Shown one piece after another: positions 1-39,776 of a DNA stretch of 64,000 nt. The position numbers and the translations under genes were made by a program. The stretch comes from Giardia intestinalis. Lineage: Eukaryota. The DNA lies in the NCBI GenBank assembly GCA_000002435.2, contig CM018792.1; one strand, given 5' to 3'. The notes beneath the pieces were generated by a model that ran no database searches, was not told where the DNA came from, and saw only the letters and a list, made by a program, of their open reading frames with translations. Numbering within the stretch: the stretch's first letter is position 1; each line of letters opens with the position of its first letter.

Positions 1-186
1 ATCATGATCTTTTCGATTTAGAACACTACAAAACGAAATATCTTTGGTTACAAGACAGATTGGTATTATCTTTTTATCAACATAAATATGTTTCTGGAAC
101 ATTCATGTAGCGCTGCACTGACCTCTTTGTGTATCCGTGAAGGCTTCAGACCTTGGTAGGCGTGGCATTAGCAAACGACTCAATGG

Positions 187-1731
187 TTGAGCATTAATGT
201 CTTTATACTTCTGGTTGGCCTTGCGCTCCATCTGGCGACAGAGGAGTGCACACCCGTCTCTGGTGATCAGCCCGACGCTTGCAAGGCCTGTAGCGCCGTC
301 ATCAACGGCAAGAAGTACTGCTCGCAGTGCAACAGCGGTGGGTCTCAATCTGCCCCGACGGACGGAGTGTGCTTACCAGACAACGCTGTGTGTAATGCAA
401 AAGCAGAAGGAAAGTGCACCATGTGCACGGGAAGCTCCTTCATGTACAAGGGCGGATGCTATGTAACAACCAAGGCGCCTGGCAATGCAGCGTGTACACA
501 AGCAGCTGCTGGAGTGTGCACACAAGCCGCGCAAGGATACTTCCTGCCACCCGATGCTGATAGAGATAATGCACACCAATCGGTTATACCATGTGGAGAT
601 GTTGAAGAAGTGTTGGCTGGAAACAGCCACAAGTACAAGGGCGTGCCGCACTGCACTCGGTGTGACACGCCTGACGCAGCAACCGATGCTAACGCCAAGG
701 CTGCCACGTGCACGGCATGTGAGGACGGGTACTTTGTAGATAGCAGTAAAGGGTGCACTGCCTGTGATAGTAGTTGTAAAACGTGTGAGGCCACAGGAGA
801 TACTAAGTGCAAGTCGTGTAAGGATGGCTACTTCCTGGCCGCAGCAGATAATAATCCAGGCAAGTGCATATCATGTGGAGATGTTCAAGGCTCAAGTGGC
901 TGGAAGGGGGTCGCTGGATGCGCCAAGTGCAACAAACCAGCTAATGCAAACACCCCTGCCACATGCACTGAGTGCCAGGAAGATAAGTATCTGAAGACAG
1001 GTGAGACATCCAGCTGTGTCAGTGTAGAGGAGTGTAAGGATGGATTCTTCCCCACGACTGATAAACAAGGCAAGAAGGTGTGTGCTAAGTGCAGCGATAC
1101 TGCCAATGGTGGCATAGAGGGCTATGCAAAGTGCTCTCTCAAGGCAGCGTCTGCAAGAGCAGGTCCAATAGTTACGTGCTCTGAGTGCACCACAAACAAC
1201 CTGAGCCCCCTGAAGGACGCGTGTCTAACAGTCTGCCCTGCCGGGATGCATGCCAACAGCAAGGTGTGCACCCCCTGCCACGAGTCGTGCGCCGGCTGCC
1301 AGACCGATGACAAGGAGACTTCCTGTACGGCCTGCTACCCCGGATTTATACTCGTACGTGCTGGGGCTACCGATAAGGGCACGTGCGTTAAGGAGTGTAC
1401 AGGAGCAGCTGGAGCTGGTTGTGAAAGCAACATGTGCAATGCCAAGATAGCAGGGTCCAATTACTGCTCCAAGTGCATTACGGGGCAGGCACCCATCAAC
1501 GGTATTTGTACATCCGTAACAAGGTCCGCGAGAGATGCAGTCGGTTGTGCTCCGAGTAATGGAAAATGCACAGCGTGTACAGGAGACTATTTCCTCCAGT
1601 TTGGTGGATGCTATGAAAAGACGCAGTTCCCGGGAAAGATGGTATGTGCAGATGTAGACTCACAAAGAAAGTGTAATAGTTGCTTAAAGTTTGTGATGTA
1701 CATTTTGACGTTGTTGCGGAGCTGGAAGTAG
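187..1731 (+). pseudogene. VSP-like cysteine-rich protein, 5' fragment: signal-peptide-like N-terminus and two GGCY subdomains with many CXXC motifs, but no transmembrane segment or CRGKA tail. The ORF opens with TTG, and no in-frame ATG lies between it and the upstream TAG
   Basis: About 25 CXXC/CXC motifs. GGCY motifs occur at aa ~90 and ~485 (MYKGGCYVTTKAPG, LQFGGCYEKTQFPGKMVCAD). Homology to the array VSPs stops near nt 1690, and the ORF ends ...LKFVMYILTLLRSWK with no TM/CRGKA. A TAG lies at 169-171, and the first codon of the ORF is TTG at 187. It could alternatively be a secreted high-cysteine protein. Confidence 0.45.
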
Positions 1732-2173
1732 ACTGAGAAGATCGATTTGAGGAGATTGAGGCAGGATCCTTCTACACGACTAACATCTGTCTGCAAAATA
1801 TTAACAATAAGAATGTCGGCAATGGCAGATGCGAAAGCGCCTATACAGCGTTCAATATTCTGATCATTTTCTGTGGCACGCTCTTTGCTCTCGGACCCCT
1901 TACAATAGAGTAGTAGTATGGTCGGATAGGATCCTGCACCTGGGATGAGTCCCGCTGTAAGCCCCTTGGTCGTCTTTTGTCGGTCGTCATCTTCATCCAA
2001 CGCCTTGAGGCATGTTCCAAAGAGGTCGTTGAAGAGGGTTGACCTGCTATATGACTGGTCAAGAATAACGACACACGCATAATGAAGGGAGTCAGAGCTG
2101 GGATGCTCCGCGCAAGAGCCATATACTTCTTGCTACATGCGCCCTCGTCTGTAACAAAAGGAGCCTCTATTCT

Positions 2174-3236
2174 TCAATGAATAGGGTCGATACCACTGTC
2201 TTCCTCAGTAAGGTGTTCTTCAGCAGCTTCAACATTTGTACCACCGAAAAGATATACAAGTGGGGGCTTAGACATGTTCGTGGACGTAGAGGAAGTTAAA
2301 GAAACCGTAACATTTGTCGGAGTGGAGCGTTCTGCAAGATGTTCGGATTCCTTATGTTGATCCTCCGCTTTAATTGCAGGGCTATTGAGTGTTTGGAAAA
2401 AGCCAATGATCTTTCTGGTCGTGGGCTGCTCTGCCGGGTCCAGGATGAATATCTTCTCGATGACAGTTCTTACGAATTCATCTGTGATGGCGCCCAAATC
2501 AGGCCTCCACTCATTGTCAAAGACTGCTTTCGCATCCTCTGGCTCCCAAAGTGTGAAAAGCTCGGCAAGCTCATACATGACGACTCCAGAGGCTCAGATA
2601 TCCGAAGCGGTGCTCGTCTCGTATGAAGGTCTCGGGGGCCATGTATGCCGACGTTCCTGCAAAGGTGCCTCCACTATGCAGAGAGTCCTTGCAGGGCCCA
2701 AAGTCTGCGAGCACGATGCGCTAGCCGTCCCTATTCATCAGAGTTGGCGGGCCCGAGGTCCCCGTAGACGAGGCTGTAAGATAAGCTCCCGTCTTCGGCC
2801 GCCTTGCGAGGGTTGTGGGGGTAGGCGAGGGCGTCAGCCATCTGCTCTAGGAGAGGGAACATCAGCCCCTTGGGACTGGGTTTACGAGCTGCCCTGTAGG
2901 CAGTGATAAATTTCTGGAGATCCCTGTGGTGGCGGTCCATGATGACGAAGATGGGTCGTTGCTCCTGATCACCTGGTGATACTTGATGACGCTAGGCTGG
3001 GAGAGTCTTGTGACAGTTTTCAGTTCGCACTCTGTGAGCTTCTTCTCACTACGCTTGATCATCCTCTCCTCCACAGAAAGGCCTGGACACCCATCGATGG
3101 CGCGAACGGCACCGAAGGCCCCTTTGCCTAGCAGCTCGCCTTCGCGCTGATACAGCTCTTCGGGACTGAACATGGGGATGCTATCGGGGCCACTGCCAGC
3201 GCTCTCTGCAGCACGAGTGGGACTCTCACTGACCAT
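2174..3236 (-). pseudogene. NEK-like serine/threonine protein kinase pseudogene, with kinase subdomains spread over at least 4 reading frames plus in-frame stops
   Basis: N-lobe ORF 2862..3257 carries GELLGKGAFGAV (glycine loop) and ...SVIKYHQV. The next frame (2731..2940) carries LLEQMADALAYPHNP and a degenerate catalytic loop YGDLGPANSDE followed by TAG. A third frame carries RIVLADFGPCK...GTSAYMAPE. The C-lobe frame (2174..2578) carries DI*ASGVVMYELAE, where the conserved DIWSLG Trp codon is TGA, then ...FVRTVIEKIFILDP. Confidence 0.55.
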
Positions 3237-5682
3237 GTCATGCGCAATTAGATTCACGCTTTCTATTACGCCAAACTAACAATTACTGTACTGGGGCCAA
3301 TTTTCGCAGAATCTGTGGATAGATAGCAATCACGGATTCGGTGAGCCTCAGCCTTGCTACCTCCTGGTCGAACGCTTTTCCTGTGCCAGAGAGGGCCCCC
3401 ACCGCCCGAACAGACTAACCCCGATACCGAAGTGGAGCACGTCTAGGCCCGACGGTGGAGAACCCTGGACCCGTTCATCAACAGCAGCCGCCGCAGCCGG
3501 GTCACCTGCCCCTCAGGTATCCCCCCGCAAACGCAGCTCGCCGCCCGGGGCACGACTGTCCGTGGCGGCGGCCAGCCCTTCATCAAGGGGGCGCGGTACT
3601 CAACCATGAGACGGCGCAGACCATGACCTGCAGATGCCGACAGGCATCCGGTGCCCTGTGGCCTGCCATGGAGGAGGGTGCAGGTACCACGAGTCTGCGC
3701 CTTTTGCTAGTGGCCGCCGATGCCCCTCTGCCGGACTATGTTGGCACCTTCGCTGACTCGTGCTGCGTTAGACTCCGGATGCATGTACCGTGGGCTGACT
3801 ACCAAACGCGATCGCAGCCCACATGGAATAGACAAGGCCTGCCTTGCTGACAAGAGTGAACTTCCTCTTCTCGGGGGAGGAGTCCACCGCACGCCTGAGC
3901 AAGAACGTGCATGGCCACCCAGCTTCTTTTGTAGATCAAGCCCAGCGATGGGCGGGACTTGTCGCCGCCGGTCGGTGACGCCACCTCTTCTGTCCGCTTT
4001 CTGGGATGCCACTGGGGCTCAGAGGCAGCGGGCATGCGGGAGGGTCGCCCAACGCACGCTCCCTAGGCCGTGTTGCGGAGGCCGGTCATCACGTATGGAA
4101 GGGGTTCGCAACAGGGCGCCGACGTGGGCAACGCCATGGATACCGCTCTATCCATTTTCAGTAAGCGGCTTTATCCCAGCATATAGTATTCTATGGTCTA
4201 ATTGTCCCATAACAAACCATACAAAAGCAGACCTTGCACAACCATAATCACCCTTAGAATGCATCAGAGTCAACAGGATAGATTCCAAGGGCCCAGAAAT
4301 TCAGTACTCTTGGTGCCTCGTTGTAAAGGGATTGCCAAAAGTATCCACACCACTTAGCCCTTAGTCCTCACAGAGCACTGACGTGGAAATGCAGTGTGGC
4401 TTACCTTTATGGGCTGATCTCCGTTTTCTGGCTTATAGATTAGTAGGCCCAACTTTGTCGATATCCTTAATAACCTTCCTGAAACTCCTTTCTGGATCAC
4501 CACTCTTATGGTAGAATCACGCGTCTGTATGAGCTTTGTGCATCCAGGTCATTCGTGTCATCGGGTCCGAAGACAGGGCCGATAACACGCGCGGCCTGAA
4601 TCCACTTATCATTGACAAAGGATGTATGCCCAGGTGTGAAACCGTGCCACAGCTTTGCATCTGGTGGAAAAGGCAAGACAGCTTTCTCTCATATTGCATA
4701 GGCTCAACTCTCTAACATAGATAAGCACGCTTCAATGTCGTAGTGAGAATAAAAAGGGCCAGCTAGAGGCTCATGATTGCATTGGCCACGACACACACAG
4801 TTGCTATTCCCCAATAGGCATCAGATTTATTCTATTTCACTGAACCTGGGTTGCTAGCCTTTGTCTGAGTAAATCTCCTATGGAAACGCCACCGCACTGG
4901 GTGATCCTCATCCGAATATAGGGCGTTCCGGAGATTCTTGCACAGGCCTTCAGCGAGATCCTCAGCGCGATCCATAGGATGGGATGCGTGCTCTGTACGG
5001 TTCCGCCTGGCCCTTCCCCAAGGGCGAGGCAGGACAACCACGATCAGCAGACGATCATGATTTGCTCCACAAGACAGTTCCAAGGAGCTGCGTCGGGGCC
5101 TTCCTCCGGCTGGGACGCGCTGCACCCTTGGACTCGGTCCCTCGGGGCCCTGAGCATGCTTCTGTGCTGCGCGGGACAGAACCTGCTCGCCAGGAGCTGA
5201 GGAGAGACCCCGCTCATTGCCCATGTCGACGACGCACTTAGCTTCCATAGTAGCAACAGTGACGCGACGGGGCAGTCACAGAGGCGACAGGCCTGGTGAA
5301 GCAACATGGCTCGACGGTCAACACTGGGTGTAGGAGTACGGAGGGACAGGAGGCCTCTCTCCTGGCCGGTCTCAAGGAGCCCCCAGGGCAACCGAGGGCC
5401 GAAGCTAGTGATGGCACTAATCACTCGCCGTGCTGGTTGAGACGGACCCACACGTGACCTATGTGAATCCCTCGACAAGAAATAGGAGTTGGGGTGCTTG
5501 GCTGGCAGAGGCGGACTGATCCTGCCCGCACCGGAGAGTGGTGGCGGCTCACATGAGAGATCACTCAGGTAGTAGGTGACCTCACCCCGGTGACACGGAG
5601 AGTAAATTAGTATCCTAGCCAGATTAAGTATTTTCATTGTAACAATCTTAGTTTGAAAATAATTATAGATTGTACTTCGCAT

Positions 5683-8600
5683 TTACATTGTTAGGATCGC
5701 AGAAATATCCTCATCACTTAGAGCGCCTAGGAGATGTCGCCTATCGGATTCGTCTAATATTAACCCGCTTGTCGGTTCGTGGTATATGCGATTGGGGGCA
5801 GTGTCTTCTAAATTAGGATACTTTTCATATTGCTTGATCATGTAGTCTATGTTTCGTAGCTCGCTATTAACAGCGCGTTCTATAGAGCCTGGAAGCCGCG
5901 GAGAGATTGGTTCGCGGCTAGCTAGCATCGGGCCGGGATCAACTGGGGTTCTACTGAGAGTAAACGACCCCGCAGAATTGGATCGAGGTAACGGCCGGTC
6001 TTTTGCTGGGATGCGGTACTCTGAACCACTGGGCGTGTAGGGTGCACGCGCAGACTGTGGCCGCAGTGGCTGTGTTTGGAGGTCTACTCGTGGAGAAGGC
6101 TGTAGCGCAGGATGAGAGTGATATGCCTCGTGCTGCTTCTGTTGTTGTTGGATGGTTTGCTTGGCAGCTCGTAATTCTGAAACCAGCGTTCTGATCCTGC
6201 CTTTGGCCACAGTCAGCTCTTTGTTGAGGGCCTCCACTTCTTCGGCCTTAGCAAGTACAGCAGGGCTCTTTGTAGACGGCGTACTTCGTCGAGCATCGAG
6301 ATCCTTCTTGAGTCGGACTACGTCTGCATGTAGAGACTTGTTTTTCGCCTGCATCTTTTCGTTTGCCGCGACAACCCCTTCAAGGTTTTTCTGGAGCTCT
6401 GCGAGCTTCTTGTCCTTTTTGGCCAGCGAGTTAGCGTGTTCAGCCTTCAACATTGCTTGAATGTTGGACAGTGCACCTTCGTGAGAGCGCTCTCGCTCCT
6501 GCATATCGGCTATTTGCTGCATAAATCCTTGCACTTTAGCATTTTCGTCGCGTAAAAGCCGTTCTAGCATATTACACTTATCAACTTTCATCTGTATGCT
6601 TTCCATCGCAGACTCTAGCTTTGCCCTCACTTGCAGCAGTTCGCAATCTGCTTCCCTAGCTTTTATTTTCATTTCTTCCTTGAGTTCTTCCACTTCTATC
6701 TGAGCTGCAGTCAGCATATCTTGCATGTTTTTACAGTCTTGGCACTCAAACCGAGGGGTTTGGGTTCCGACCCCAGTAGCCATGGTTGTGATACTATCAG
6801 TATACAGGGACAATGCAACATCTGGAGGCATTGACGTGTTGACCTTGCTATTTAGTGCAGAGAGATTGTGCATCCTATTGGCCAAGTCTTCATATTCAAT
6901 TCGCGAGACAATATCCATGTGAGATAGTTCTGATTGGGAAGACTTGTAGGAGGTATGAACAATCATAGTCTGCACTGATACAGTTACCGTTTTATCAAAG
7001 GTGTCGCTCCTTCTTAGCGATGTAGGCGACCGCACGAAGTGGAGCATTGCAGGAGTTGTAATAGAGGAATCCATAGGGGCGTCTAAATTGACCAGACTAA
7101 CCTGACATCCAATGGAGCTGGCAGTGCGATCAGATTGACTTCCAGAGAACTCGGAGATCTGCTTCTTAGCAGACAACAGTTCTTCCTGGAGAAGCCTTAT
7201 CTTGTTCCGCATAAGATTCTGAACAGATGACGCGCTCATCGGTCCATTTGCAGTTTCTAACAGATCAAGAAATGATAAGCTAAGTTTCTCATCGCCAGTT
7301 GAATCAGAATACATCTGAAGGCTGCTAGACGGTCTTTCACCTAGATTATCCCCAACTTGATGCTGTTCGGCTTTGGTAGGCATGGAAGCTGAGAAAAGCT
7401 TTTCTCTCAGATCCTCATTCTCCTGCTGGAGTTGCAGTACTTTTTCACGTAATATAGTAAAGCGATCGGACATGCGACTAAATTTAGAGAAGACGCGTCC
7501 AAGAGTGTCTCCAAGCCGTACCTTACATGCCTCAGTAGCACCTTCCGGCTCTACACGAACGCCTGATAAAAGCAAGTCCTGTACATCAAATTGCCTCTCA
7601 GGACTTGATAGTTTAGCACTGGCACCTCTACCATGTTCAGTGGGTGTTGTATGAAGAGATTGGAGCCTATGGTACTGAATACACTTCTCAATGTCCACCG
7701 CATAGCTCTCAATAATTGCTTTACAACCTTGCGCAGACCCTGTGTAAGCATTATAAAGTTTCTGGAGCCGAACACGCAGACCAGCCATGTCTGTACATTC
7801 ATTGTGTAAGCTAGTGTTTTCAGCTTGCAAAGCCAGGACCTGGTCCATAAGCTCTTGCTTTTCGTCCTTTAATGTCTTAATTGAGGCAACTAACGCATCA
7901 TACTCAGCTCCTTGTAAAATGTCACACTGAACTGAAGCAGAAAAAGTTTCCTTTTTCGTAGAATATAACTGTAATTCCTTTTCTAGCTTTGTAGTTGTCT
8001 CTTTTGCTTCAATGAGCTGTTGACGAAGACTCTCTTCCGTAGCCTTGAAGGAACGTAGTGCCTGAGTATATAATGATCGAATGTTCGAAAGATTGGATCG
8101 GATTTTGTCCTTCTTGCAGCAGATAAAGCGAATTGCACCCAACTTAAGACTTAAGCGAGTAACCTCACGATAAATTCTATCAGCTAGCTCAGTATTAAGC
8201 TGCTCTAAGGTTGAGATCCTCCTCTCGCATGCGCTTACAATGCGCTTGCTAGATGAAAGAATGAGCATTCCATTCTCTTGGGTCCCCAACATGGAAACAT
8301 CCTCGTGCAGTGTGTGATGGAAAAACGAAGTACCAGCATTAGTGGTTGCTTGTGTAGAAGGAACTGTTAGCCTAGAAAAATCTCCTGTCATATTGTCTGT
8401 CAATGGAGGTAAGGTGATAATCTCTCCTAGTCCTTCGCAAAGGGAAGAGATTCGAGACTTCATCCCTTGAAGCCTTAATTTAAGAGCTTTTAGTTCAACT
8501 TTCTTATCATCTGCTGATAGATTATTGAATGCTTTGGATTCCGCAAAACATGCCTGAAGCTCAGCTTGGAGGCCCTCACTGGGGCGAATAATGACGCCAC

Positions 8601-11217
8601 CTTCGGCTCGGCCTTTCTGCCACGCTGACTGCTGGGTTAGAGACTTTCTTGCATGCTCGACAGCGGAAAGCTTTGTCGGGACAAAGTTGGGGCCGCTATT
8701 CTGGCCTGCCTGCTGCGGTGGGACCTCATCATATATGATACCTGCAGCAGCTAGTCTAGAACTATACTCTGTGGGCGTTTCACTTTCTAGGATGAGAGCT
8801 AGGCTGTTGCAAATACGATAAGATGCCTCTCCCTCCAGCAGTGCTTCTGCACATCGCTTTATACTTAGAAATGCCAGTTGTAGGCCTGCAGAGTCATGCT
8901 GGGAGCTGCTTCTAACCGAGATAGAGGATGTCTGGGTAGTCGACGATGCTTGCTTGCTAGTTTGAAGGATAGCCTTGGTCAGTAACAGATCGTTTTCCTC
9001 ATTAAATAGCCGCAAGGACTCTTCCATCTCTTTGCATCGAAGACCATGCCCCTGTAGTAGCAAGGAGGAATACATGGATGCTAAGCTCTCTGCAACCATG
9101 CATCTAGCATATAGAGCCTCTACTGAGTCCTCTTTGTCTAGCGATGACAAGTCTTGCAAACTGATCCTGGCTTGGAGATTCACCTGGCGCTGCAGAAGCT
9201 CATTTTCAGCTGTCAACTCATCAATCCGTTCAGCAAACATAATGATCCTGTTTCGCGCAGCAGTAAGATCGTTAATCAATAGAGAAAGTTCATGACTAGA
9301 TGACCAGCTGTCCTTCACACCTTGGTAAGGGAGACGGCCCTTAGAATAAAATTGCTCCAACACATTGTAGCATATACTGCGATAGCGGACTGCTGTATCA
9401 TAGAAGAATTCTGTTGTCTTTTTGGAATCAACCATGCTATTAAGTATCTTCAGTAGGTGTCCTCCGTGTCCGCTAGATAGCGGCGGATTGAGGATGGAGC
9501 TGATATGGGTGTTCATGCGGGATACTATCGCGCTATGCGTTGACAGGGTAGATGCATCAGAGGAGCCCTCAGCGGAAGTTTGGGACTTATTAACTGATGT
9601 AATAAGCTTTTGTTTCCCACGCGTATCTTTGTTATCCTTCACTAGCTTGTACATGCTATCCTGCTCAGTGATAATAGCATGAATATCTGCACACAATCGC
9701 GAATTCAAACGCTCAAGACGGTGGATCTCTGCCTCTAGCTCGTGTTGTCTCATCATCGCCTGATTGCATCTTATTTCCCAAAGACTATCGGGTATAGACA
9801 CTGGCAACAATGAAACAAGTGATTTAATTGCATTTCTATTGATATGTATCTCATTCTTTTCGTTATTTTTTAAGTCTGGTTGTTCTGTGTTGTCAACAGG
9901 TTTGTAATTTTGTGTTGTCAGCGCTCTCATTAGCTCTAGATCCTGCTCCCATAACCCGTCTCTATATGATTGTAATACAAGTGTTTCAACAACATTGCTA
10001 TTAAACAAGTCCGATTTTAGAATTTCATCTTGAACTGTGTTAACAATGCCCAGCCCCAGCTTTATCTTATAGATTTCTCGTATCTTGATGAGGAGGGCTC
10101 TCTTAAGCTCCATAATAAGATCTTTGTCATCCTCATTGCTCACTTGAAGGATCTTGTGGATTTTCAAGTTGTACTCAGTCTGAGTAGTCGCGTGGACAGG
10201 CTTTCTATGGATTGTCTCCTTAGTTATGTCATTGGATGATTCTGAGTCGGATTCTATATACTCATATTCAAGATCTGTAGCTGAAGCTGAGCCACCGTTA
10301 TCACTGGTAGACGTTCCAGAGTCTCCTAAGGAGACCTTCGATACCCGACGTCGGCGCTTCTTGAGTTCTTGTTGTCTTCTTTCAATGACACCGTTTTCTC
10401 CCTCTTCTATTACCTCTATGCGGGTCGAAAATCGAATAGACTTTTCCAGTGGAACATCGGGGCCCAGAGAGACAGAATTTGTAGCAACACGCTTATATAT
10501 CTCCAGATCCTCGGTTTGCTTGTCGCGGAGAGACTTCTCACCCATGTCTATGATGATGTTATGGAGCTCCTGTATCTTCGTGTCCTTTTCAACAAGCAGT
10601 GCTTCCATATTTGCCCGCTCTCTGATGCACGCATCTACTTTTGCTGACAGCGCTATTGCTTTCTCATTGATTTCATGCATGAGTTGAAGGTCCTTTTTCT
10701 GCTCAGCGACTTGCGCCTGGCTGGTTGCTATAACTCGATCTCTATCTGTGATTATTTCTTGAAGTCGACTAATTTCTTCATCCCGCTCTAGTAAGCATCT
10801 TTCTAACTTATCATAATTCTCTTGAAAGGCCTCATCCATTGTGGCGCTTTGAGTTTCCATAGTTTGCTTTAATAGGAGTAATTCTGTAGTTTTCGCCTCA
10901 TTCTGACTACGTAGATGCCGTAATTCCGTCTCCATTCTGCTTAGTTTAGCTTCGAGCGCATTCTGTGTTCGCTCTAACAGAAGCTCCTTTTCCGTTTGAT
11001 CCTTAAGCGCTGCCTCCATGGTTCCAAGGATGTGCTTGTGCTGTCGAACCTCTTGAACGTGTACTTCGCCCAAACTAATTAGTTGAACGCAGGCTTCTGG
11101 TAAGTCTCCTCGCTTCATCAGATCAATGCATTCACGATACTCCTCAGGAAGCTTCCTTACTCTTTGGGCCAAAATGACGGGATCAATCTGCTCCCCTGCA
11201 CTCCCTTCCCCTGCCAT
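5683..11217 (-). CDS. Large coiled-coil protein (1844 aa), function unknown
   Basis: Uninterrupted 5.5 kb ORF with an ATG start (cat at 11215-11217 on the + strand) and a TAA stop. It has long heptad-like Glu/Lys/Leu/Gln-rich stretches (e.g. ...ELRHLRSQNEAKTTELLLLKQTMETQ..., ...LEEADCELLQVRAKLESAMESIQMKVDKCNMLERLLRDENAKVQ...). The C-terminal 200 aa are Pro/Ser-rich. Confidence 0.7.
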   Translation of the reverse strand: MAGEGSAGEQIDPVILAQRVRKLPEEYRECIDLMKRGDLPEACVQLISLGEVHVQEVRQHKHILGTMEAALKDQTEKELLLERTQNALEAKLSRMETELRHLRSQNEAKTTELLLLKQTMETQSATMDEAFQENYDKLERCLLERDEEISRLQEIITDRDRVIATSQAQVAEQKKDLQLMHEINEKAIALSAKVDACIRERANMEALLVEKDTKIQELHNIIIDMGEKSLRDKQTEDLEIYKRVATNSVSLGPDVPLEKSIRFSTRIEVIEEGENGVIERRQQELKKRRRRVSKVSLGDSGTSTSDNGGSASATDLEYEYIESDSESSNDITKETIHRKPVHATTQTEYNLKIHKILQVSNEDDKDLIMELKRALLIKIREIYKIKLGLGIVNTVQDEILKSDLFNSNVVETLVLQSYRDGLWEQDLELMRALTTQNYKPVDNTEQPDLKNNEKNEIHINRNAIKSLVSLLPVSIPDSLWEIRCNQAMMRQHELEAEIHRLERLNSRLCADIHAIITEQDSMYKLVKDNKDTRGKQKLITSVNKSQTSAEGSSDASTLSTHSAIVSRMNTHISSILNPPLSSGHGGHLLKILNSMVDSKKTTEFFYDTAVRYRSICYNVLEQFYSKGRLPYQGVKDSWSSSHELSLLINDLTAARNRIIMFAERIDELTAENELLQRQVNLQARISLQDLSSLDKEDSVEALYARCMVAESLASMYSSLLLQGHGLRCKEMEESLRLFNEENDLLLTKAILQTSKQASSTTQTSSISVRSSSQHDSAGLQLAFLSIKRCAEALLEGEASYRICNSLALILESETPTEYSSRLAAAGIIYDEVPPQQAGQNSGPNFVPTKLSAVEHARKSLTQQSAWQKGRAEGGVIIRPSEGLQAELQACFAESKAFNNLSADDKKVELKALKLRLQGMKSRISSLCEGLGEIITLPPLTDNMTGDFSRLTVPSTQATTNAGTSFFHHTLHEDVSMLGTQENGMLILSSSKRIVSACERRISTLEQLNTELADRIYREVTRLSLKLGAIRFICCKKDKIRSNLSNIRSLYTQALRSFKATEESLRQQLIEAKETTTKLEKELQLYSTKKETFSASVQCDILQGAEYDALVASIKTLKDEKQELMDQVLALQAENTSLHNECTDMAGLRVRLQKLYNAYTGSAQGCKAIIESYAVDIEKCIQYHRLQSLHTTPTEHGRGASAKLSSPERQFDVQDLLLSGVRVEPEGATEACKVRLGDTLGRVFSKFSRMSDRFTILREKVLQLQQENEDLREKLFSASMPTKAEQHQVGDNLGERPSSSLQMYSDSTGDEKLSLSFLDLLETANGPMSASSVQNLMRNKIRLLQEELLSAKKQISEFSGSQSDRTASSIGCQVSLVNLDAPMDSSITTPAMLHFVRSPTSLRRSDTFDKTVTVSVQTMIVHTSYKSSQSELSHMDIVSRIEYEDLANRMHNLSALNSKVNTSMPPDVALSLYTDSITTMATGVGTQTPRFECQDCKNMQDMLTAAQIEVEELKEEMKIKAREADCELLQVRAKLESAMESIQMKVDKCNMLERLLRDENAKVQGFMQQIADMQERERSHEGALSNIQAMLKAEHANSLAKKDKKLAELQKNLEGVVAANEKMQAKNKSLHADVVRLKKDLDARRSTPSTKSPAVLAKAEEVEALNKELTVAKGRIRTLVSELRAAKQTIQQQQKQHEAYHSHPALQPSPRVDLQTQPLRPQSARAPYTPSGSEYRIPAKDRPLPRSNSAGSFTLSRTPVDPGPMLASREPISPRLPGSIERAVNSELRNIDYMIKQYEKYPNLEDTAPNRIYHEPTSGLILDESDRRHLLGALSDEDISAILTM

Positions 11218-11318
11218 GTTTCTAGAAAGCTCTTATTTCAGCCAGGAACGCTCCTCTGAAATGTAAAAGATGGGAATTTTAATCATTTTTTGCTCCCATT
11301 CACTCAGCGGTTGACAGA
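11218..11318. promoter_or_regulatory. Divergent intergenic region (101 bp) between two head-to-head genes; AT-rich tract immediately upstream of the + gene ATG
   Basis: ...gaaatgtaaaagatgggaattttaatcattttttgctccc... Giardia promoters are short AT-rich initiator regions within about 60 bp of the ATG (established knowledge). The call rests on position and composition only. Confidence 0.35.
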
Positions 11319-13748
11319 ATGTCCGTTGACGAGTTTTCTAGAGACTTTGAGATAATAGAAGATATTGTCAACCGCCCCAGTGAGCGTCTCCTGAAAGTGC
11401 GCGGCAAAACCTCTGGTGCATATTATGCATGCAGGCAAATAGACGTATCAAAGCTCAAACAAGAACAGCAGCAGATGCTTGAAGCTGAAATACACCTGTT
11501 TCAACAGCTAGATGGAAAATTAACCACTCGTTACCTCAGGGTGCTGCGCAACAATAAGCCTAGCGTTATCCATTTGATCATGGAATACTGTGACGACGGG
11601 ACATTAGAAGACTTGTTTGTAAGAACTCGGGAAAGAAGAATACCTTGTACAGAGGAAAAGACACGAGCTATTGGGTCTCAGATAGCACATGCTTTGAGCG
11701 CTCTCCGCTCCTCGGCCTGTGGACTTGATGGGGCTACCGTTATGGGCGCTCTTACGCCGAAATCTGTCCTCTTACTCAGCACAGGAAAGATCAGACTTAA
11801 AGGACTTTGCTCATGGCATTCATCGGGACAGATTTCTATATCAACTCGAGCAGACTACATGATATCGTATACTGCACCCGAGGTGTTTACTAGTAACATT
11901 TATAATGAGCAATCGGAGGTGTGGGCTCTAGGATGCATTCTGTATGAGGCCCTTGCAGCAAGGAGATGCTTCTCCGCAGAAACGGGAGCTATTCTGAGGC
12001 ATAACATAATTAACTGCAAATATGCTCCACTTCCTAGCAGCGTCAGCGAAGGAATGAAGCTGCTAATTTCAGAAATGCTCAAGCCCGATTATAATTCCCG
12101 TCCGACTTTACTAGATGTTAGGTTATCCCTTCAACTGCTTAGCAATGCAGAAAAGACGCATCATTGGGACCCCGATATCATAACAGAGATCGCTGGCCAT
12201 CCAACACCAGTTGCGGACTCAATCAAGAAGCTGGTAGGGATGGTTAGTGGAGATATTGTCACATTCCTGCAGAATCCAAGCAGTCCAGTAGTTTCTGCAT
12301 ATATACACACTGATCTAAAGACATCTAAAGCCTCGGGAAACGTGCATCTCGCTGGTAAGGTTGTTCTTACAAAGTCCACGTATGCGGATGGTGCGACTAA
12401 CTGTGCTATCGACAGATCCAGACTACCTACCAGCGCAAGCATAGTGTACACGAGATCAAGCAGCAAAGGTAAAACGAGTTCCATTGTACACACCCCATCC
12501 ATGTCGAAGATGGCTAATACCATACGTCATGGAGCCAGATCGCATAGTAGTTTTTCATCCTCTGCGCTTCAAACTCCCAATTTAACCTGCAAACACGTGG
12601 TATCAAGTTTCAGAAAGTCTATCGGCTCAAATGGTATATTAAACAATAACAGTACTTCTGTTTCAAATACAGACTCATTAAGAAAAAAGCATGCTTCCGA
12701 TTGCAACGTGGACATGAACTCTGATAGCTTGACCCTTAGCAACCTAAATACTGGGCAAGATTGCTTACAACAAAAGCCACAGTTCTTAGAGCGCAATGGT
12801 GGAGGTTCTTCTGTTAGATCCGCTAGTGTAAGATTGCCATCCATGTCAATGACAACGAAACCCGCAAATCTGCAACTAATGGCCCTACACAACGCAGTAG
12901 GAGGTTCGTTTAACGCCCTGAGCAGAGACGTGACATTCAGTAAAACGCAAAGCTCGACCACAGATGTGTGTGGTACAACTGATTTGATGATTGCAGCAGT
13001 GAAAGGGAATGCTTCTCTTGTTGAACGTTACCTTGATACGCAGTCGGGGATGAGAAATTGCAATGGTATGACAGCACTGATGCTCGCAGCAGAGCGAGAC
13101 CATGAGGCTGTAGTCTTACTCCTGCTCGCCACAGAGGGGCGCATGCATGTCTTACTTCCGGACGGGCGCAAGGGAAAGACAGCACTTATGTTTGCCGCCA
13201 TCAACAATCATACAAGTACTGTACAACGTCTTTTGGAGACTGAGGCTGGCCAGCAAGATGAAAATGGCAACACAGCCTTAATGCTTGCTGTGAAGCACCG
13301 GTTTACAGACGTAGTGAAACAGTTGGTGCAGTGGGAAGGAAAGATGGCAAATGAGAGAGGAGAAACCGCCCTTATGATGGCTGCAGCAACTGGAGACGTA
13401 ACTAGCGTAGGGTTATTGATAGACACGGAAGCTGGCTCAGTAACGACGTATGGCTGGACTGCGCTATGCTTTGCTGTCATGAACCATCATGCTTTGGCAG
13501 CCGAGGCTCTTGCTCAACGAGAACTTGGGTTGCAATGTTTTCAACATGGTTGTAGTGGTGTGACTGCGTTTATGATAGCCGCTGAGGCAGGATACGTAGA
13601 TATAGCATCATTGCTGGTAGAAAAGGAGGTATTTCTTCGAAACAAGAACGGCGAAAAAGCACTGGATATAGCCATTAAAGCAGGTCAGGCAGATATGATT
13701 GCCTTCTTAGAGAATGCAGAAAGACTCCTAGAAGCAGATATGTGCTGA
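11319..13748 (+). CDS. NEK-family kinase-like protein with C-terminal ankyrin repeats; predicted catalytically inactive pseudokinase
   Basis: NEK signature IHLIMEYCDDGTLEDL; activation-segment ISYTAPEVF; EVWALGCILYEAL. It lacks the VAIK lysine (YACRQI), the HRDLKPxN loop (ACGLDGATVMGALTPKSVLL) and DFG (RLKGLCSW). At least seven ankyrin repeats (GxTALMxAAxxGH-type: GMTALMLAAERDHEAVV, KTALMFAAINNHTSTVQ, GNTALMLAVKHRFTDVV, GETALMMAAATGDVTSV...). ATG at 11319. Confidence 0.75.
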   Translation: MSVDEFSRDFEIIEDIVNRPSERLLKVRGKTSGAYYACRQIDVSKLKQEQQQMLEAEIHLFQQLDGKLTTRYLRVLRNNKPSVIHLIMEYCDDGTLEDLFVRTRERRIPCTEEKTRAIGSQIAHALSALRSSACGLDGATVMGALTPKSVLLLSTGKIRLKGLCSWHSSGQISISTRADYMISYTAPEVFTSNIYNEQSEVWALGCILYEALAARRCFSAETGAILRHNIINCKYAPLPSSVSEGMKLLISEMLKPDYNSRPTLLDVRLSLQLLSNAEKTHHWDPDIITEIAGHPTPVADSIKKLVGMVSGDIVTFLQNPSSPVVSAYIHTDLKTSKASGNVHLAGKVVLTKSTYADGATNCAIDRSRLPTSASIVYTRSSSKGKTSSIVHTPSMSKMANTIRHGARSHSSFSSSALQTPNLTCKHVVSSFRKSIGSNGILNNNSTSVSNTDSLRKKHASDCNVDMNSDSLTLSNLNTGQDCLQQKPQFLERNGGGSSVRSASVRLPSMSMTTKPANLQLMALHNAVGGSFNALSRDVTFSKTQSSTTDVCGTTDLMIAAVKGNASLVERYLDTQSGMRNCNGMTALMLAAERDHEAVVLLLLATEGRMHVLLPDGRKGKTALMFAAINNHTSTVQRLLETEAGQQDENGNTALMLAVKHRFTDVVKQLVQWEGKMANERGETALMMAAATGDVTSVGLLIDTEAGSVTTYGWTALCFAVMNHHALAAEALAQRELGLQCFQHGCSGVTAFMIAAEAGYVDIASLLVEKEVFLRNKNGEKALDIAIKAGQADMIAFLENAERLLEADMC

Positions 13749-22831: not shown

Positions 22832-24735
22832 TCACGCCTTCCCCCTGCACAGGAACCACCAGCAGAGGAAGCCCACGAGGCCCCCCACGACGACGACCAC
22901 AGCGACGGAGATCCCCGCGATGGCCCCCGTGGAGAGCCCGCCCCTGTTGGCGCCAGAGGACACACAGGAGGCCCCAGCATCATCAGGGCTGTACCCATCG
23001 TTGCACACACAGACAGAGTTATCATCAGTGGAGTTGCTGGGACAGCCATCCACGCATGACTTCCTCCCAGGGCTCACCTTCCCACTACTACATGCCTCGC
23101 ACATGTCATCCCTGTTGGGCTTCTTACTACTGTCACAGGAGGTACAGACAGCGGGGGCCATACCACCATCAGACAGAGCTGCTGGGGCTGTACACTGGGA
23201 GCAGCCCTCTACCCCCACATATGCCTTAGCAGTATTACCAGTGCCTGTCAGTGTGCCTAGGGGTTACTACAAGCCAACACAGACTGATCAGTGTTGGATG
23301 CACCAGGCACTACGAAGTACCTATTGTTGGCTGCTTCTGTGCAGATCCCAGTATTACCTGCTGTCTTGCACATGAAGCTACCAGGAGCCTTCTGAGTGCT
23401 ATAACAGCCACCCATGTATAGGAAGTAGTTGTTGGTGCACTGTGTACATACACCATTAGCACAAGTATTCCCAGCCTTTTGAGCCTCACTAGCACAGAGA
23501 CCATCTATAGGAGCTTGTGAACTATCTCCACAATAGGAACAGTAGTGCTTTGTGGTGCCCTGATCATCTATTACGATGGCATCACAAGAGCCAGCTGTCC
23601 CCCCACAAGCCGTGGGGTCCTCGCAGGTCTTCTCTGTGCATGTATAGTTGTCTGAGGTTCCAGCGGGCTTCCTGTTAGGCTTGCACTTTGTGCACTTGAG
23701 AGGTCCTGTAGACTCCTTTGTGCACTCGGCACACCCATCGATGCCCCCCTGTGCATTATCACAAGCAACGCACTCACCAGTAGGACCATTGCCTTTCATG
23801 AAGAACCCAGGCTTGCATGTATCACACTTATCATTGCCAGTTTGAGTGCAGGTGGCACAGTTAGCACCTGGACAAGCGGTGCATGTAACCGTACCACTAC
23901 CACTACTGTAGTATCCATCGAGGCACTCCGAGCAGGTCGGCGGTGTCGCCGAGTCCTTGGTACACTTCTTACACCCGGCAATGCCCTGGTAATTTGGATC
24001 GGCTCCAGCTGAAACGGTACTGCATAAAACACATGTTTTGTCCTCCTTCATAAATAGGGCCTCGTCAGCGCCTTTACATCCAGCGTAGTCTTTTGTCACG
24101 CACGTCGAGGTCCCATCAAGGGCCGTCCTGGGGATCTTACTGTTATCACAAGCTGTGCACTTCGGCTTCTTGGTAGTCGAATCAACCTCACACTGGGTAC
24201 ATGCTTGATCTATCGTGTTGCAAGGAAGGCACTTCCCCGACTCCGGGTCAGCATAAGTGTTTCCAGTGCATCCATTATTATTCACGCATGACTTGTCAGT
24301 CTTCAGGTACTTCCCCTCTGGGCACGATGTACAATGATTCTGACCACTTCCATCGCAGGTCAGACAGGACGGATCACACTGCTTGCATTCGTTATTCTCT
24401 TTATAGTACCCTGCTTGGCACTCAGTGCACGTGGCAGGTCCTGGACTATTAGTTGGTTCCGTGCACTTGAGGCAGTTAGCCACCCCCGTATATCCATCTG
24501 CTCCCTTGGTATCCCAGCAGAGGATGCACTCCCTTCCCTTCTCTGATGGTGTAGCAGGGTTCTTGAACAGGCCGTTAGCTGTATTACACTCAGTGCACAC
24601 TCCATTACTGGCTGCTGTGCATATCTCACTGCCAGGGTGTGCATCCTTGTTGTAGCACCCGCCCATGAAGAGGAGTCTCATACTATCACTATCACCCCCA
24701 CACCACATAGCACTATCACTATCACTGTACAGCAT
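22832..24735 (-). pseudogene. VSP unit 0 (N-module A', middle X, C-terminal type 1), frameshifted by loss of one G in a G5 run
   Basis: At 23260-23263 the + strand reads cctaggggttactac (G4), whereas every other X-type unit reads cctagggggttactac (G5). This splits the unit into ORFs 23257..24735 and 22832..23218. Last unit of the array. Confidence 0.65.
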
Positions 24736-24740
24736 TCACT
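24734..24740 (-). promoter_or_regulatory. Giardia-type polyadenylation signal AGTGAAT (AGTRAAY) 6 nt after the unit-1 stop codon, overlapping the unit-0 ATG (AGTGAATG). The same motif recurs at every unit junction and after the last unit (22820..22826)
   Basis: + strand attcact (reverse complement AGTGAAT) at 24734-24740. The identical arrangement occurs at 26630-26636, 28551-28557, 30422-30428, 32226-32232, 34101-34107, 36015-36021, 37932-37938 and 39763-39769 (by periodicity). Consensus AGTPuAAPy is the known Giardia polyA signal. Confidence 0.55.
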
Positions 24741-24747
24741 ACCTAAG

Positions 24748-26631
24748 TCACGCCTTCCCCCTGCACAGGAACCACCAGCAGAGGAAGCCCACGAGGCCCC
24801 CCACGACAGCGACCACGGCGACGGCAATGCCCGCGATGGCCCCCGTGCTGAGGCCGCTCCTATTACTGCCAGAGGACACACAGGAGGCCCCAGCATCATC
24901 AGGGCTGTACCCATCGTTGCACACACAGACAGAGTTATCATCAGTGGAGTTGCTGGGACAGCCATCCACGCATGACTTCCTCCCAGGGCTCACCTTCCCA
25001 CTACTACATGCCTCGCACATGTCATCCCTGTTGGGCTTCTTACTACTGTCACAGGAGGTACAGACAGCGGGGGCCATACCACCATCAGACAGAGCTGCTG
25101 GGGCTGTACACTGGGAGCAGCCCTCTACCCCGACGTATGCCTTAGTATCTACTAGTGTGCCTAATGGGTTGCCACAGGCCAGGACAGACTGATCAGTGTT
25201 GGATGCACCAGGGACTACGAAGTACTTATTATTCTCATTGGCAGCTGTACACTTACCATCGGCTGCTGTCTTGCACATGAGGCTTCCTGGTTCTGTATCA
25301 TACTTATAACACCCACCCATGTACAAGAAGTAGTTGTTAGTGCATTGTGTACATACACCTTGATCACATTGATTATTTGCTTTAGCACTATTACACTTCC
25401 CATCTATAGGATACGTATTAGCTTCTCCACAGTATGAGCAATAATGATGCTCTACACCCTTATCATCAATCACTATTGCATCGCAGGCACCAGAGGTACC
25501 ACCACAAGCCGTGGGGTCTTCACATGTCTTCACACATGTATAGTCATCCCCCGCATCTCCATTGGATTGCTTCCTGTAGTTAGGCTTACATTCAGTGCAC
25601 TTGAACCCATTATTGTTAGAACATAGACTACAGCCTTCACGGCCACCATCTGTTGTACTGTCACAAGCAACGCACTCACCAGTAGAGCCGGGTTGTTTCA
25701 TGAAGAATCCAGGCTTGCATTTAGTGCACTTATCATTGCCAGCTTGAGTGCAGGTGGCACAGTTGGCACCACAGGCTTCACATGTAACCGTACCACCATT
25801 TCCACTATTGTAATATCCGTCGAGGCACTCCGAGCAGGTCGGCTTGGCTCCGTTCTTCTTACATGTTTTACACCCAGGCGTCCCTTTATTAGCTTCTAAA
25901 CTTTCACTATCATCACTACACAATATGCACTTGGTGCTACCATCATTTAGAAAGTGGGATCCGTCAACGTTACTTGTTGCGCACCCATTTGCATCGACAC
26001 AGGTTGTCGTGCCATCGATGGCCGTCTTCACCATCTTCTGACCACCGCAGTTAGTGCACTTCGGCTTCTTGGTAGTCGAATCAACCTCACACTGGGTACA
26101 TGCTTGATCTATCGTGTTGCAAGGAAGGCACTTCCCCGACTCCGGGTCAGCATAAGTGTTTCCAGTGCATCCATTATTATTCACGCATGACTTGTCAGTC
26201 TTCAGGTACTTCCCCTCTGGACACGATGTGCAATGATTCGGACCACTTCCATCGCAGGTCAGACAGGACTGATCACACTTCTCACATGCATCACCCTTCT
26301 TAATGTATCCATCTTGGCAGACAGTGCATGTGGCCGGTCCGCTAGTGCCCGTGTGGGAGCATTCTGAGCATCCAGCGACTCCCATGACCCCGTTTCTATC
26401 TATAGTATCGGAGCACAAGATGCACTCACTACCCTTCTCTGATGGTGTAACTGGGTTCTTGAACAGGCCGTTAGCTGTATTACAAGCAGTGCACAGTCCT
26501 CCCTCAGCCTTTGTGCATATCTCACTGCCAGGGTGTGCATCCTTGTTGTAGCACCCGCCCATGAAGAGGAGTCTCATACTATCACTATCACCCCCACACC
26601 ACATAGCACTATCACTATCACTGTACAGCAT
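24748..26631 (-). CDS. VSP unit 1 (N-module A, middle Y, C-terminal type 1); ATG start but no signal peptide
   Basis: 627-aa intact ORF with ATG at 26629-26631 (cat). Ends FLCWWFLCRGKA, stop at 24748-24750. Confidence 0.8.
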   Translation of the reverse strand: MLYSDSDSAMWCGGDSDSMRLLFMGGCYNKDAHPGSEICTKAEGGLCTACNTANGLFKNPVTPSEKGSECILCSDTIDRNGVMGVAGCSECSHTGTSGPATCTVCQDGYIKKGDACEKCDQSCLTCDGSGPNHCTSCPEGKYLKTDKSCVNNNGCTGNTYADPESGKCLPCNTIDQACTQCEVDSTTKKPKCTNCGGQKMVKTAIDGTTTCVDANGCATSNVDGSHFLNDGSTKCILCSDDSESLEANKGTPGCKTCKKNGAKPTCSECLDGYYNSGNGGTVTCEACGANCATCTQAGNDKCTKCKPGFFMKQPGSTGECVACDSTTDGGREGCSLCSNNNGFKCTECKPNYRKQSNGDAGDDYTCVKTCEDPTACGGTSGACDAIVIDDKGVEHHYCSYCGEANTYPIDGKCNSAKANNQCDQGVCTQCTNNYFLYMGGCYKYDTEPGSLMCKTAADGKCTAANENNKYFVVPGASNTDQSVLACGNPLGTLVDTKAYVGVEGCSQCTAPAALSDGGMAPAVCTSCDSSKKPNRDDMCEACSSGKVSPGRKSCVDGCPSNSTDDNSVCVCNDGYSPDDAGASCVSSGSNRSGLSTGAIAGIAVAVVAVVGGLVGFLCWWFLCRGKA

Positions 26632-26643
26632 TCACTACCTAAG

Positions 26644-28552: not shown

Positions 28553-28564
28553 TCACTACCTAAG

Positions 28565-30358: not shown

Positions 30359-30420
30359 ACTCCACTATCACCCTATCACCCTCTATCACCCACTATCACC
30401 CATTATCACACATTGTACAG
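30352..30420. repeat. Variable-copy microrepeat (core TATCAC on the + strand, GTGATA on the coding strand) at unit junctions. About 5 copies at this junction versus 2 at 32164..32239 and 39701..39776. The same core forms the MLYSDSDSAMWCGGDSDS N-terminal codons of the A-type units
   Basis: 30356..30410: ccactatcac cctatcac cctctatcac ccactatcac ccattatcac a. The A-type junction (e.g. 24681..24732) reads catactatcactatcacccccacaccacatagcactatcactatcactgtacag. Confidence 0.7.
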
Positions 30421-30435
30421 CATTCACTACCTAAG

Positions 30436-32163: not shown

Positions 32164-32239
32164 TCCACTACTGGCCTGTGTGCATATCTCACTCCACTAT
32201 CACCCATTATCACACATTGTACAGCATTCACTACCTAAG

Positions 32240-34102: not shown

Positions 34103-34114
34103 TCACTACCTAAG

Positions 34115-36016: not shown

Positions 36017-36028
36017 TCACTACCTAAG

Positions 36029-37933: not shown

Positions 37934-37945
37934 TCACTACCTAAG

Positions 37946-39700: not shown

Positions 39701-39776
39701 TCCACTACTGGCCTGTGTGCATATCTCACTCCACTATCACCCATTATCACACATTGTACAGCATTCACTACCTAAG

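What the first reader, a model, noticed from the sequence alone, without database searches (positions are those of the whole stretch)
187..3236. Gene-graveyard at the window start: a 3'-truncated VSP fragment abutting a multiply disrupted NEK kinase
The VSP-like ORF 187..1731 keeps the signal peptide and both GGCY subdomains but loses homology at ~1690, exactly where the minus-strand kinase-associated ORFs begin. It is the mirror image of the array units, which lack the 5' half. The adjacent NEK kinase has specific lesions: a TAG inside the catalytic-loop region (DE*GR), a TGA replacing the Trp codon of the DIWSLG motif, and at least 3 frameshifts between subdomains. Together with ~2.3 kb of ORF-less GC-rich DNA (3260..5680) this looks like a rearrangement scar, and it could be the donor-side remnant of the event that created the 5'-truncated units.
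Basis: partly seen in the sequence, partly recalled or inferred. Interest (0 to 1): 0.5.

Follow-up and report, generated by a model that had tools for sequence, protein, structure and literature searches.

The report
Dead VSP joined to dead Nek-GTPase gene
The start of this Giardia window holds two dead gene remnants fused tail to tail, a surface-antigen (VSP) fragment and the front quarter of a large kinase-GTPase-ankyrin gene; the kinase part is already catalogued as a pseudogene, so the finding is real but ordinary.

Summary
ORF 187..1731 is a VSP that lacks its membrane anchor and CRGKA tail. Its own ATG (197) is also one base out of frame. The minus-strand kinase is broken by frameshifts and stops.

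Two corrections. First, the kinase is already published: it matches Nek-GL4 pseudogene GK415 / GL50803_104193 (Manning 2011, Table S1) in 362 of 363 residues, including all three frame changes and both stops. Second, the ORFs between kinase and VSP are the N-terminal half of an RHD3/Sey1-type GTPase domain. Kinase plus GTPase fragment (3236 down to ~1687) align end to end with residues 1-527 of an intact 2044-aa Giardia protein (kinase + RHD3 GTPase + coiled coil + ankyrin repeats; a P15 relative is GLP15_1450). They are one ancestral gene that has lost its 3' three quarters.

The VSP/GTPase junction lies at 1684-1686. It is also present in isolate DH and in a metagenome contig, so it is old and not an artefact.

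The proposed link to the VSP array is not supported: amino-acid identity is at most about 41%, there is no meaningful DNA similarity, and the breakpoints do not coincide.

Verdict: a known kind of Giardia gene decay. Low interest.

The parts
187..1683 (+). VSP-derived reading frame (pseudo-VSP). It carries a signal-peptide-like N-terminus, a CXXC-rich ectodomain and two GGCY motifs (nt 451 and 1603). It follows full-length VSPs through Cys499.
   Evidence: Pfam PF03302 E=3.7e-51. Alignment to P0003-P0007. Motif counts.
197..199 (+). Probable native VSP start codon, in TAATGTC (one base off the PyAatgTT initiator consensus). It is one base out of frame with the VSP ORF, and the same is true in isolate DH.
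   Evidence: Sequence. Initiator consensus PyAatgTT from PMC2996952. Signal peptides of homologues, MFY.FLLIGLAL.
1684..1686 (.). Tail-to-tail junction between VSP-derived and GTPase-derived DNA, placed to within a few bases.
   Evidence: VSP homology ends at codon 499 (1681-1683). GTPase DNA and protein homology to L001, P0002 and P0129 runs down to about 1687.
1684..1731 (+). Sixteen codons plus the stop that close the VSP ORF. They read through the antisense of the GTPase remnant (LKFVMYILTLLRSWK*) and are not VSP sequence.
1687..2173 (-). N-terminal half of an RHD3/Sey1-type GTPase domain. It carries frame changes near 2096 and 1711, and degenerate motifs: P-loop LDQSYSRS in place of GPQSSGKS, and YCKG in place of DCEG.
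   Evidence: Pfam PF05879 E=4e-15, profile 23-130 of 245. Colinear alignment to P0129. DNA alignment to L001.
2174..2176 (-). TGA that ends the 'kinase ORF'. It aligns to Gln in P0129 and to Arg in GLP15_1450, so it is a nonsense lesion inside one longer ancestral gene.
2177..3236 (-). Nek-GL4 kinase domain plus linker; this is pseudogene GK415 / GL50803_104193. Lesions: frame changes at 2965-2966, 2742 and 2606-2612; TAG at 2721-2723; TGA at 2594-2596. The catalytic Lys and the HRD motif are replaced (LSVEER, YGDLGPAN).
   Evidence: 362 of 363 residues identical to the published reconstruction. NEK2 is among the best solved-structure hits.
3237..5682 (.). Spacer of 55% GC between the kinase remnant and the coiled-coil gene (5683..11217, ortholog DHA2_112787). 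It holds no supported gene.
   Evidence: No Pfam hits. The 175-aa ORF shows 2 synonymous against 13 nonsynonymous differences versus DH. No Rfam family in the part of the spacer covered by the 1..6000 scan. No similarity to the other loci or to the rest of the window.

Best explanation
Window 187..3236 holds two non-functional gene remnants joined 3' end to 3' end.

(1) A pseudo-VSP. It keeps its own upstream region and ATG, but carries a one-base frame error right after the ATG. It has lost its last ~135 codons, which held the membrane anchor and the CRGKA tail.

(2) The first ~520 of ~2000 codons of a Giardia-specific Nek-GL4 kinase / RHD3(Sey1)-type GTPase / coiled-coil / ankyrin-repeat gene. 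This remnant is riddled with five frame changes and three in-frame stops, and its catalytic motifs are degenerate.

Most likely origin (inferred). The two genes once lay convergently, and a single deletion or non-reciprocal recombination removed both 3' ends and whatever lay between them. This happened before assemblage sub-groups AI and AII separated.

Since then the kinase-GTPase remnant has drifted neutrally and exchanged sequence with its dead paralogues. The 5' kilobase of the VSP remnant has been overwritten in frame by other VSP sequences in at least one lineage.

Nothing here is expected to make a working protein.
For: Shown.
- VSP identity and truncation.
- The start codon is out of frame in both WB-type and DH sequence.
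- The kinase equals the curated pseudogene GK415 / GL50803_104193.
- RHD3 GTPase fragment.
- One ancestral gene: the repaired 518-aa translation aligns colinearly to P0129 residues 1-527 (51% identity, E=2e-161) and to GLP15_1450 (55%).
- P0129 is an intact 2044-aa ORF with Pkinase, RHD3_GTPase and ankyrin repeats.
- Manning's table lists GLP15_1450 as Nek-GL4 with RHD3 and 34 ankyrin repeats.

Age and reality of the junction.
- The DH contig is colinear over window 1..11780 and has the same VSP C-terminus.
- Contig L002 is 98.4% identical across the junction.
- The frame changes at 2965-2966 and 2742 and the TAG at 2721-2723 are shared with DH. Other lesions differ between the two.

Relaxed constraint (window against DH). 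Omega is 1.08 for the GTPase fragment, on only 9 substitutions, against 0.15 for the neighbouring coiled-coil gene.

A deletion is favoured over an insertion because no VSP 3' piece lies on the far side of the kinase remnant.

Literature. There are 30 Nek pseudogenes in WB, 29 of them GL4 (PMC3218828). C-terminally truncated pVSPs, and pVSPs whose signal peptide lies in another frame, are described (bioRxiv 10.1101/2022.03.07.483299).
Against: - The ancestral arrangement could not be seen. Contigs carrying more distant orthologues of the coiled-coil gene (L004, L005) end within 800 bp of it and share no DNA with window 1..5700. The G. muris locus is arranged differently. The single-deletion step is therefore inference.
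- The VSP ORF stays open for 514-515 codons in both isolates, and every indel between them is in frame. That could hint at residual use.
- The omega estimates for the remnants rest on very few substitutions.
- Some differences from DH may reflect gene conversion between paralogous dead copies rather than independent mutation. The DH patch resembles WB paralogue GK426.
Confidence: 0.82

Rival explanations
1. The 3'-truncated VSP is the reciprocal (donor-side) product of the rearrangement that produced the 5'-truncated VSP units of the array at about 23-42 kb.
For: One remnant lacks its 3' end, and the array units lack the signal-peptide end. Both lie in the same 64-kb window.
Against: Only 26-41% amino-acid identity, and only one 74-bp DNA match at 74% identity. 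Array units start just before the first GGCY and contain regions equivalent to fragment residues ~21-507, so the two overlap instead of complementing each other. The fragment's partner at the junction is a GTPase gene, not array DNA. Intact long genes lie between the two. Arrays of 5'-incomplete VSPs are a general genome feature (PMC2996952).
Confidence: 0.03
2. The frameshifts, stops and junction are sequencing or assembly errors in an otherwise intact VSP and kinase.
For: None specific. Draft Giardia assemblies do contain errors in repeated families.
Against: The same three frame changes and two stops appear in the reconstruction published in 2011. The core lesions and the junction are in the DH assembly and in a metagenome contig. 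Neighbouring ORFs of 1844, 2203 and 1722 codons are uninterrupted. WB paralogues GK420 and GK421 carry the same lesion pattern.
Confidence: 0.02
3. The remnant is dead as a gene but still in use. The pseudo-VSP would serve as a recombination substrate or reservoir for VSP diversification. Convergent transcription across the junction might also yield antisense or double-stranded RNA.
For: Between WB-type and DH sequence the flanks are 98-99.5% identical, but VSP nt 200-1200 is only 74-89% identical, with nine indels that are all in frame. dS is 0.198 against 0.046 background, with omega 0.43. The best-matching VSP changes along the length; for example DH residues 61-150 are 96.7% identical to P0044. 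Recombination among vsp genes has been reported (PMC2996952).
Against: These data show the remnant receiving sequence, not donating it. Ancient allelic polymorphism or a chimeric DH assembly could mimic the pattern. No expression or small-RNA data were available.
Confidence: 0.25
4. The junction arose by insertion. An already dead, already truncated copy of the Nek-GTPase remnant, one of several dispersed copies, landed in the 3' part of a VSP.
For: WB has at least three further copies (GK420, GK421, GK424) that share even the sequence upstream of the ATG and the same lesions, so the dead gene has been copied around.
Against: An insertion should leave the VSP 3' end beyond the insert. None is found in any frame between 1731 and 6000, where the next intact gene starts. 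No target-site or flanking repeats are seen.
Confidence: 0.15

Closest known systems
Nek-GL4 pseudogene GK415 / GL50803_104193 (Manning et al. 2011, Genome Biol 12:R66, Table S1)
   Same: The same locus. 362 of 363 residues of the published three-frame reconstruction match the window, including three frame changes and two stops.
   Different: The published entry stops at ...GIDPIH. It does not note that the reading frame continues into an RHD3 GTPase domain.
GLP15_1450 (GK458, assemblage E isolate P15) and metagenome protein P0129: intact Nek-GL4 kinase + RHD3 GTPase + ankyrin proteins
   Same: Same domain order, colinear over kinase, linker and the first half of the GTPase domain. Identity is 55% to GLP15_1450 and 51% to P0129.
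   Different: Those are intact ORFs; P0129 has 2044 aa, an HRD catalytic loop and a GPQSSGKS P-loop. The window copy keeps only about the first quarter. It has 5 frame changes, 3 stops and degenerate motifs.
C-terminally truncated pseudo-VSPs (pVSP) of Giardia WB (Adam 2010, PMC2996952; Rodriguez-Walker 2022 preprint, 10.1101/2022.03.07.483299)
   Same: [quoted passage not shown] Both categories are described.
   Different: I could not match this copy to a named pVSP locus tag. Here the truncation point is a defined fusion to another gene remnant.
Canonical Sey1p/RHD3 ER-fusion GTPases
   Same: The fragment matches the RHD3 GTPase domain profile, with motifs around TTKG and IVNI.QTDV.
   Different: The intact Giardia relatives P0128 and P0129 end in ankyrin repeats, whereas the more Sey1-like P0131 has a hydrophobic C-terminal stretch. 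P0129 also carries an N-terminal kinase. The window piece is a degenerate half-domain.

Membership tests
Giardia VSP (PF03302) | Cysteine-rich ectodomain with many CXXC motifs and a GGCY motif | tested here: met
   19 CXXC, 11.3% Cys, GGCY at aa 89 and 473. Pfam E=3.7e-51.
Giardia VSP (PF03302) | N-terminal signal peptide translated from an ATG | tested here: not met
   A hydrophobic leader is present, but the ATG at 197 is one base out of frame. The first in-frame ATG is codon 79. No signal-peptide predictor was run.
Giardia VSP (PF03302) | C-terminal transmembrane segment followed by CRGKA | tested here: not met
   Alignment ends ~135 residues short. No CRGKA, WWF or GGLVGF motif in six frames of 1..6000.
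Nek kinase, Giardia subfamily GL4 | Protein kinase domain that groups with curated GL4 members | tested here: met
Identical to the curated GL4 entry GK415. No phylogeny was built here.
Nek kinase, Giardia subfamily GL4 | Uninterrupted ORF with catalytic Lys, HRD and DFG | tested here: not met
   Three frame changes and two stops inside the domain. LSVEER replaces VAVKE and YGDLGPAN replaces HRDLKPxN. DFG is kept.
RHD3/Sey1 dynamin-like GTPase (PF05879) | Complete GTPase domain with a GxxxxGKS P-loop | tested here: not met
   Only profile positions 23-130 of 245 are matched. The P-loop reads LDQSYSRS where P0129 has GPQSSGKS.
RHD3/Sey1 dynamin-like GTPase (PF05879) | Helical stalk and C-terminal membrane anchor | tested here: not met
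   The sequence is cut at ~1687. In addition, the intact Giardia relatives P0128 and P0129 carry ankyrin repeats at the C-terminus.
Processed or unitary pseudogene (general) | Disabling lesions reproducible in independent sequences, and relaxed constraint | tested here: met
   Lesions are shared with DH and with the published WB reconstruction. Omega is about 1 in the GTPase fragment against 0.15 in the neighbouring gene, on small counts.

The most novel reading that the evidence does not exclude
The pseudo-VSP may be an active recombination substrate rather than an inert remnant. Since the AI/AII split, its 5' kilobase has been rewritten in frame by tracts from other VSPs, while its disabling start-codon shift and its 3' junction stayed fixed. 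If so, dead VSP fragments would form part of Giardia's reservoir for antigen diversification, as VSG pseudogenes do in trypanosomes. Separately, the locus marks the loss in assemblage A of a little-noticed kinase-RHD3 GTPase-ankyrin gene type that is intact in other Giardia lineages.
Probability: 0.3. Interest if true: 0.45.

Novelty: already known. Interest (0 to 1): 0.15.

Why it matters
It matters little on its own. Giardia's VSP and Nek-GL4 families are known to turn over quickly and to leave many pseudogenes, and this kinase remnant was catalogued in 2011.

There are two modest gains.
- An annotation correction: the 'kinase pseudogene' and the neighbouring unannotated ORFs are one truncated kinase-RHD3 GTPase-ankyrin gene. 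This points to a Giardia-specific multidomain family that is listed only in a supplementary table.
- A clean, dated example (older than the AI/AII split) of a tail-to-tail gene-remnant fusion, with signs of in-frame gene conversion into a dead VSP.

Tried and rejected
- An exact look-up of the 1844-aa neighbour found nothing.
- Contigs with its more distant orthologues (L004, L005) end 260-750 bp past the gene. They share no DNA with window 1..5700, so the ancestral arrangement could not be read.
- The G. muris locus is not colinear.
- The word-indexed protein search with the GTPase fragment gave only two hits. The full HMMER search was needed to find intact relatives.
- The M*Q TAG at 2133-2135 was first counted as a lesion, then dropped. 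It lies in a frame that is not the ancestral one at that point, and the 175-aa ORF P0001 is an artefactual call.
- Tandem Repeats Finder found nothing in the array because its period exceeds 500.
- Pfam on spacer ORFs, Rfam on 1..6000 and a repeat search around the junction all found nothing.
- I considered a canonical Sey1 pseudogene and rejected it. The intact relatives carry a kinase and/or ankyrin repeats, not a membrane anchor.
Full report
**What is in the sequence**

The plus-strand ORF 187..1731 (514 codons) is clearly VSP-derived. Pfam VSP scores E=3.7e-51. It has 58 cysteines, 19 CXXC motifs and GGCY at residues 89 and 473.

Its best Pfam stretch covers only profile positions 1-244 of 397. 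In an alignment with full-length VSPs it follows them through Cys499 (nt 1681-1683). It then lacks about 135 residues, including the membrane segment and CRGKA. A search with VSP C-termini, and for CRGKA-type motifs in all six frames of 1..6000, found nothing. The gene therefore does not continue in another frame.

The ORF is also disabled at its 5' end. There is an in-frame TAG at 169-171, and the first in-frame ATG is codon 79. The ATG that sits in TAATGTC (197-199), one base off the published PyAatgTT initiator consensus, is one base out of frame with the signal-peptide-like leader (consensus from PMC2996952). Isolate DH has exactly the same arrangement; its annotated 'VSP' simply starts at the TTG.

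**The kinase**

On the minus strand, three reading frames have to be spliced to follow a kinase domain from the ATG at 3236. The lesions are:

- Frame change at 2965-2966.
- Frame change at 2742.
- Frame change at 2606-2612.
- TAG at 2721-2723 (DG*RIV).
- TGA at 2594-2596 (SDI*ASG).

However, it lies in the frame already abandoned at 2742; the homologues show that the ancestral frame reads AN-LMNRDG*RIVLADFG.

The catalytic Lys and HRD are also replaced.

This object is already in the literature. Table S1 of the Giardia kinome paper (PMC3218828) lists GK415 / GL50803_104193 as Nek-GL4, 'Pseudogene'. Its reconstruction matches the window in 362 of 363 residues, including all three frame changes and both stops. 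The same table lists near-identical dead paralogues with the same lesion pattern: GK420, GK421, GK424 and GK426. The paper counts 30 Nek pseudogenes in WB, 29 of them GL4.

**What lies between kinase and VSP**

The ORF 1611..2000 is the N-terminal half of an RHD3/Sey1-type GTPase domain (PF05879, E=4e-15, profile 23-130 of 245). Its P-loop is degenerate.

A full HMMER search with this fragment found intact Giardia relatives:

- P0129: 2044 aa, from a metagenome contig (L007).
- P0128: 1185 aa.
- A multi-copy 945-aa family in G. muris.
- A partial 'ankyrin repeat protein' of G. duodenalis.

P0129 is a single uninterrupted ORF with Pkinase (33-286), RHD3_GTPase (401-652), a coiled coil and many ankyrin repeats.

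The repaired translation of window 3236 down to ~1687 (518 aa) aligns colinearly with P0129 residues 1-527 (51% identity, E=2e-161). It also aligns with the P15 protein GLP15_1450 (55%). The kinome table records GLP15_1450 as a P15-only Nek-GL4 with an RHD3 domain and 34 ankyrin repeats.

The TGA at 2174-2176 that 'ends' the kinase ORF aligns to Gln/Arg in these proteins. It is therefore a further nonsense lesion. Two more frame changes lie near 2096 and 1711.

Kinase and GTPase fragment are thus one ancestral gene of about 2000 codons, of which only the first quarter survives.

**The junction**

VSP homology ends at 1683. DNA and protein homology of the GTPase side to L001, P0002 and P0129 runs down to about 1687. 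This places the junction at 1684-1686.

The last 16 codons of the VSP ORF are antisense GTPase DNA.

Both genes have lost their 3' ends. No VSP 3' piece lies beyond the kinase remnant, and no repeats flank the junction. I therefore favour one deletion or non-reciprocal recombination between convergent neighbours. This step is inferred, not shown.

**Age and reality**

The DH contig AHGT01000028 is colinear with window 1..11780. It carries the same VSP C-terminus ...CNSCLKFVMYILTLLRSWK. Contig L002, from a third source, is 98.4% identical across 1514..2254 and mixes WB-like and DH-like variants.

Comparison of lesions with DH:

- Shared: the frame changes at 2965-2966 and 2742, and the TAG at 2721-2723.
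- Different: DH keeps TGG in DIW and a 14-bp stretch that the window lacks. It has its own TAA and its own 14-bp loss.
- The differing DH patch resembles WB paralogue GK426, so exchange between dead copies is likely.

Nei-Gojobori estimates, window against DH:

| Region | omega | Note |
|---|---|---|
| Coiled-coil neighbour | 0.15 | dS 0.046 |
| GTPase fragment | 1.08 | only 9 substitutions |

Sequencing error is therefore excluded, and the event predates the AI/AII split.

**The array hypothesis**

The fragment and the array units (23257..42074, minus strand) share 26-41% amino-acid identity. The only DNA match is one 74-bp stretch at 74% identity.

Array units start MLYSDSDS...LFMGGCY, just before the first GGCY. 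They carry nearly a whole ectodomain plus CRGKA; only the head unit has a leader. The fragment ends after the second GGCY. The pieces overlap rather than complement each other.

Linear arrays of 5'-incomplete VSPs are a general feature of the genome (PMC2996952). The proposed link is not supported.

**The spacer 3237..5682**

It is 55.4% GC against 49.5% for the window. Its ORFs have no Pfam hits. The 175-aa ORF that DH annotates shows 2 synonymous against 13 nonsynonymous differences. The Rfam scan of 1..6000, which covers the spacer, found nothing, and nothing similar occurs elsewhere in the held sequences.

GC-rich islands and synteny breaks around VSP and Nek genes have been described (PMC2723961).

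**Verdict**

The 'graveyard' reading is right and the link to the array is wrong.

The components belong to well-documented categories, and the kinase part is already catalogued. New here are three points:

- The kinase and GTPase remnants form one gene.
- The junction can be placed to within a few bases.
- The VSP remnant shows in-frame mosaic divergence between isolates.

Interest is low.

Noticed in passing
window 200..1200, compared with L003 10015..11015: The 5' kilobase of the dead VSP is only 74-89% identical between WB-type and DH sequence, while the flanks are 98-99.5% identical. All nine indels are in frame, dS is 0.198 against 0.046 background, and the best-matching VSP changes along the length. 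This looks like gene conversion into a pseudogene.
   Followed up: partly
L007 194..6328 (P0129); also P0128, P0130, P0132: Giardia has a family of RHD3/Sey1-type GTPases fused to ankyrin repeats, and in some members also to an N-terminal Nek-GL4 kinase. It is intact in some lineages and multi-copy in G. muris (at least 5 near-identical 945-aa genes). In the papers I read and searched, it appears only in a supplementary table.
   Followed up: partly
L001 1157..1883: A second, 72%-identical copy of the GTPase region, from another metagenome. It is also split over three frames, yet it reads on past the point where the window copy is cut. This is a separately decaying copy in another Giardia lineage.
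   Followed up: partly
L002 (equivalent to window 1514..2254): This metagenome contig carries DH-type variants in the GTPase part and WB-type variants in the VSP part. This suggests a recombinant or third A-type haplotype.
   Followed up: no
window 23257..42074 (minus strand): A linear array of about ten VSP units behind one head unit (39777..42074) that has a leader. Downstream units start MLYSDSDS or at GTG within the first GGCY region. Several ORFs are cut short (for example 23257..24735 and 26644..27651).
   Followed up: partly
window 3720..4247: In the frame offset by +2 from the 175-aa ORF, differences from DH are 10 synonymous against 4 nonsynonymous, despite 7 stops. This may be chance, or the trace of an older decayed coding sequence in the GC-rich spacer.
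   Followed up: no
window 2568 and 2623, compared with L003: There are reciprocal 14-bp presence/absence differences between WB-type and DH copies of the kinase remnant. The WB loss happens to restore the reading frame across YELA|ELFTLW.
   Followed up: partly
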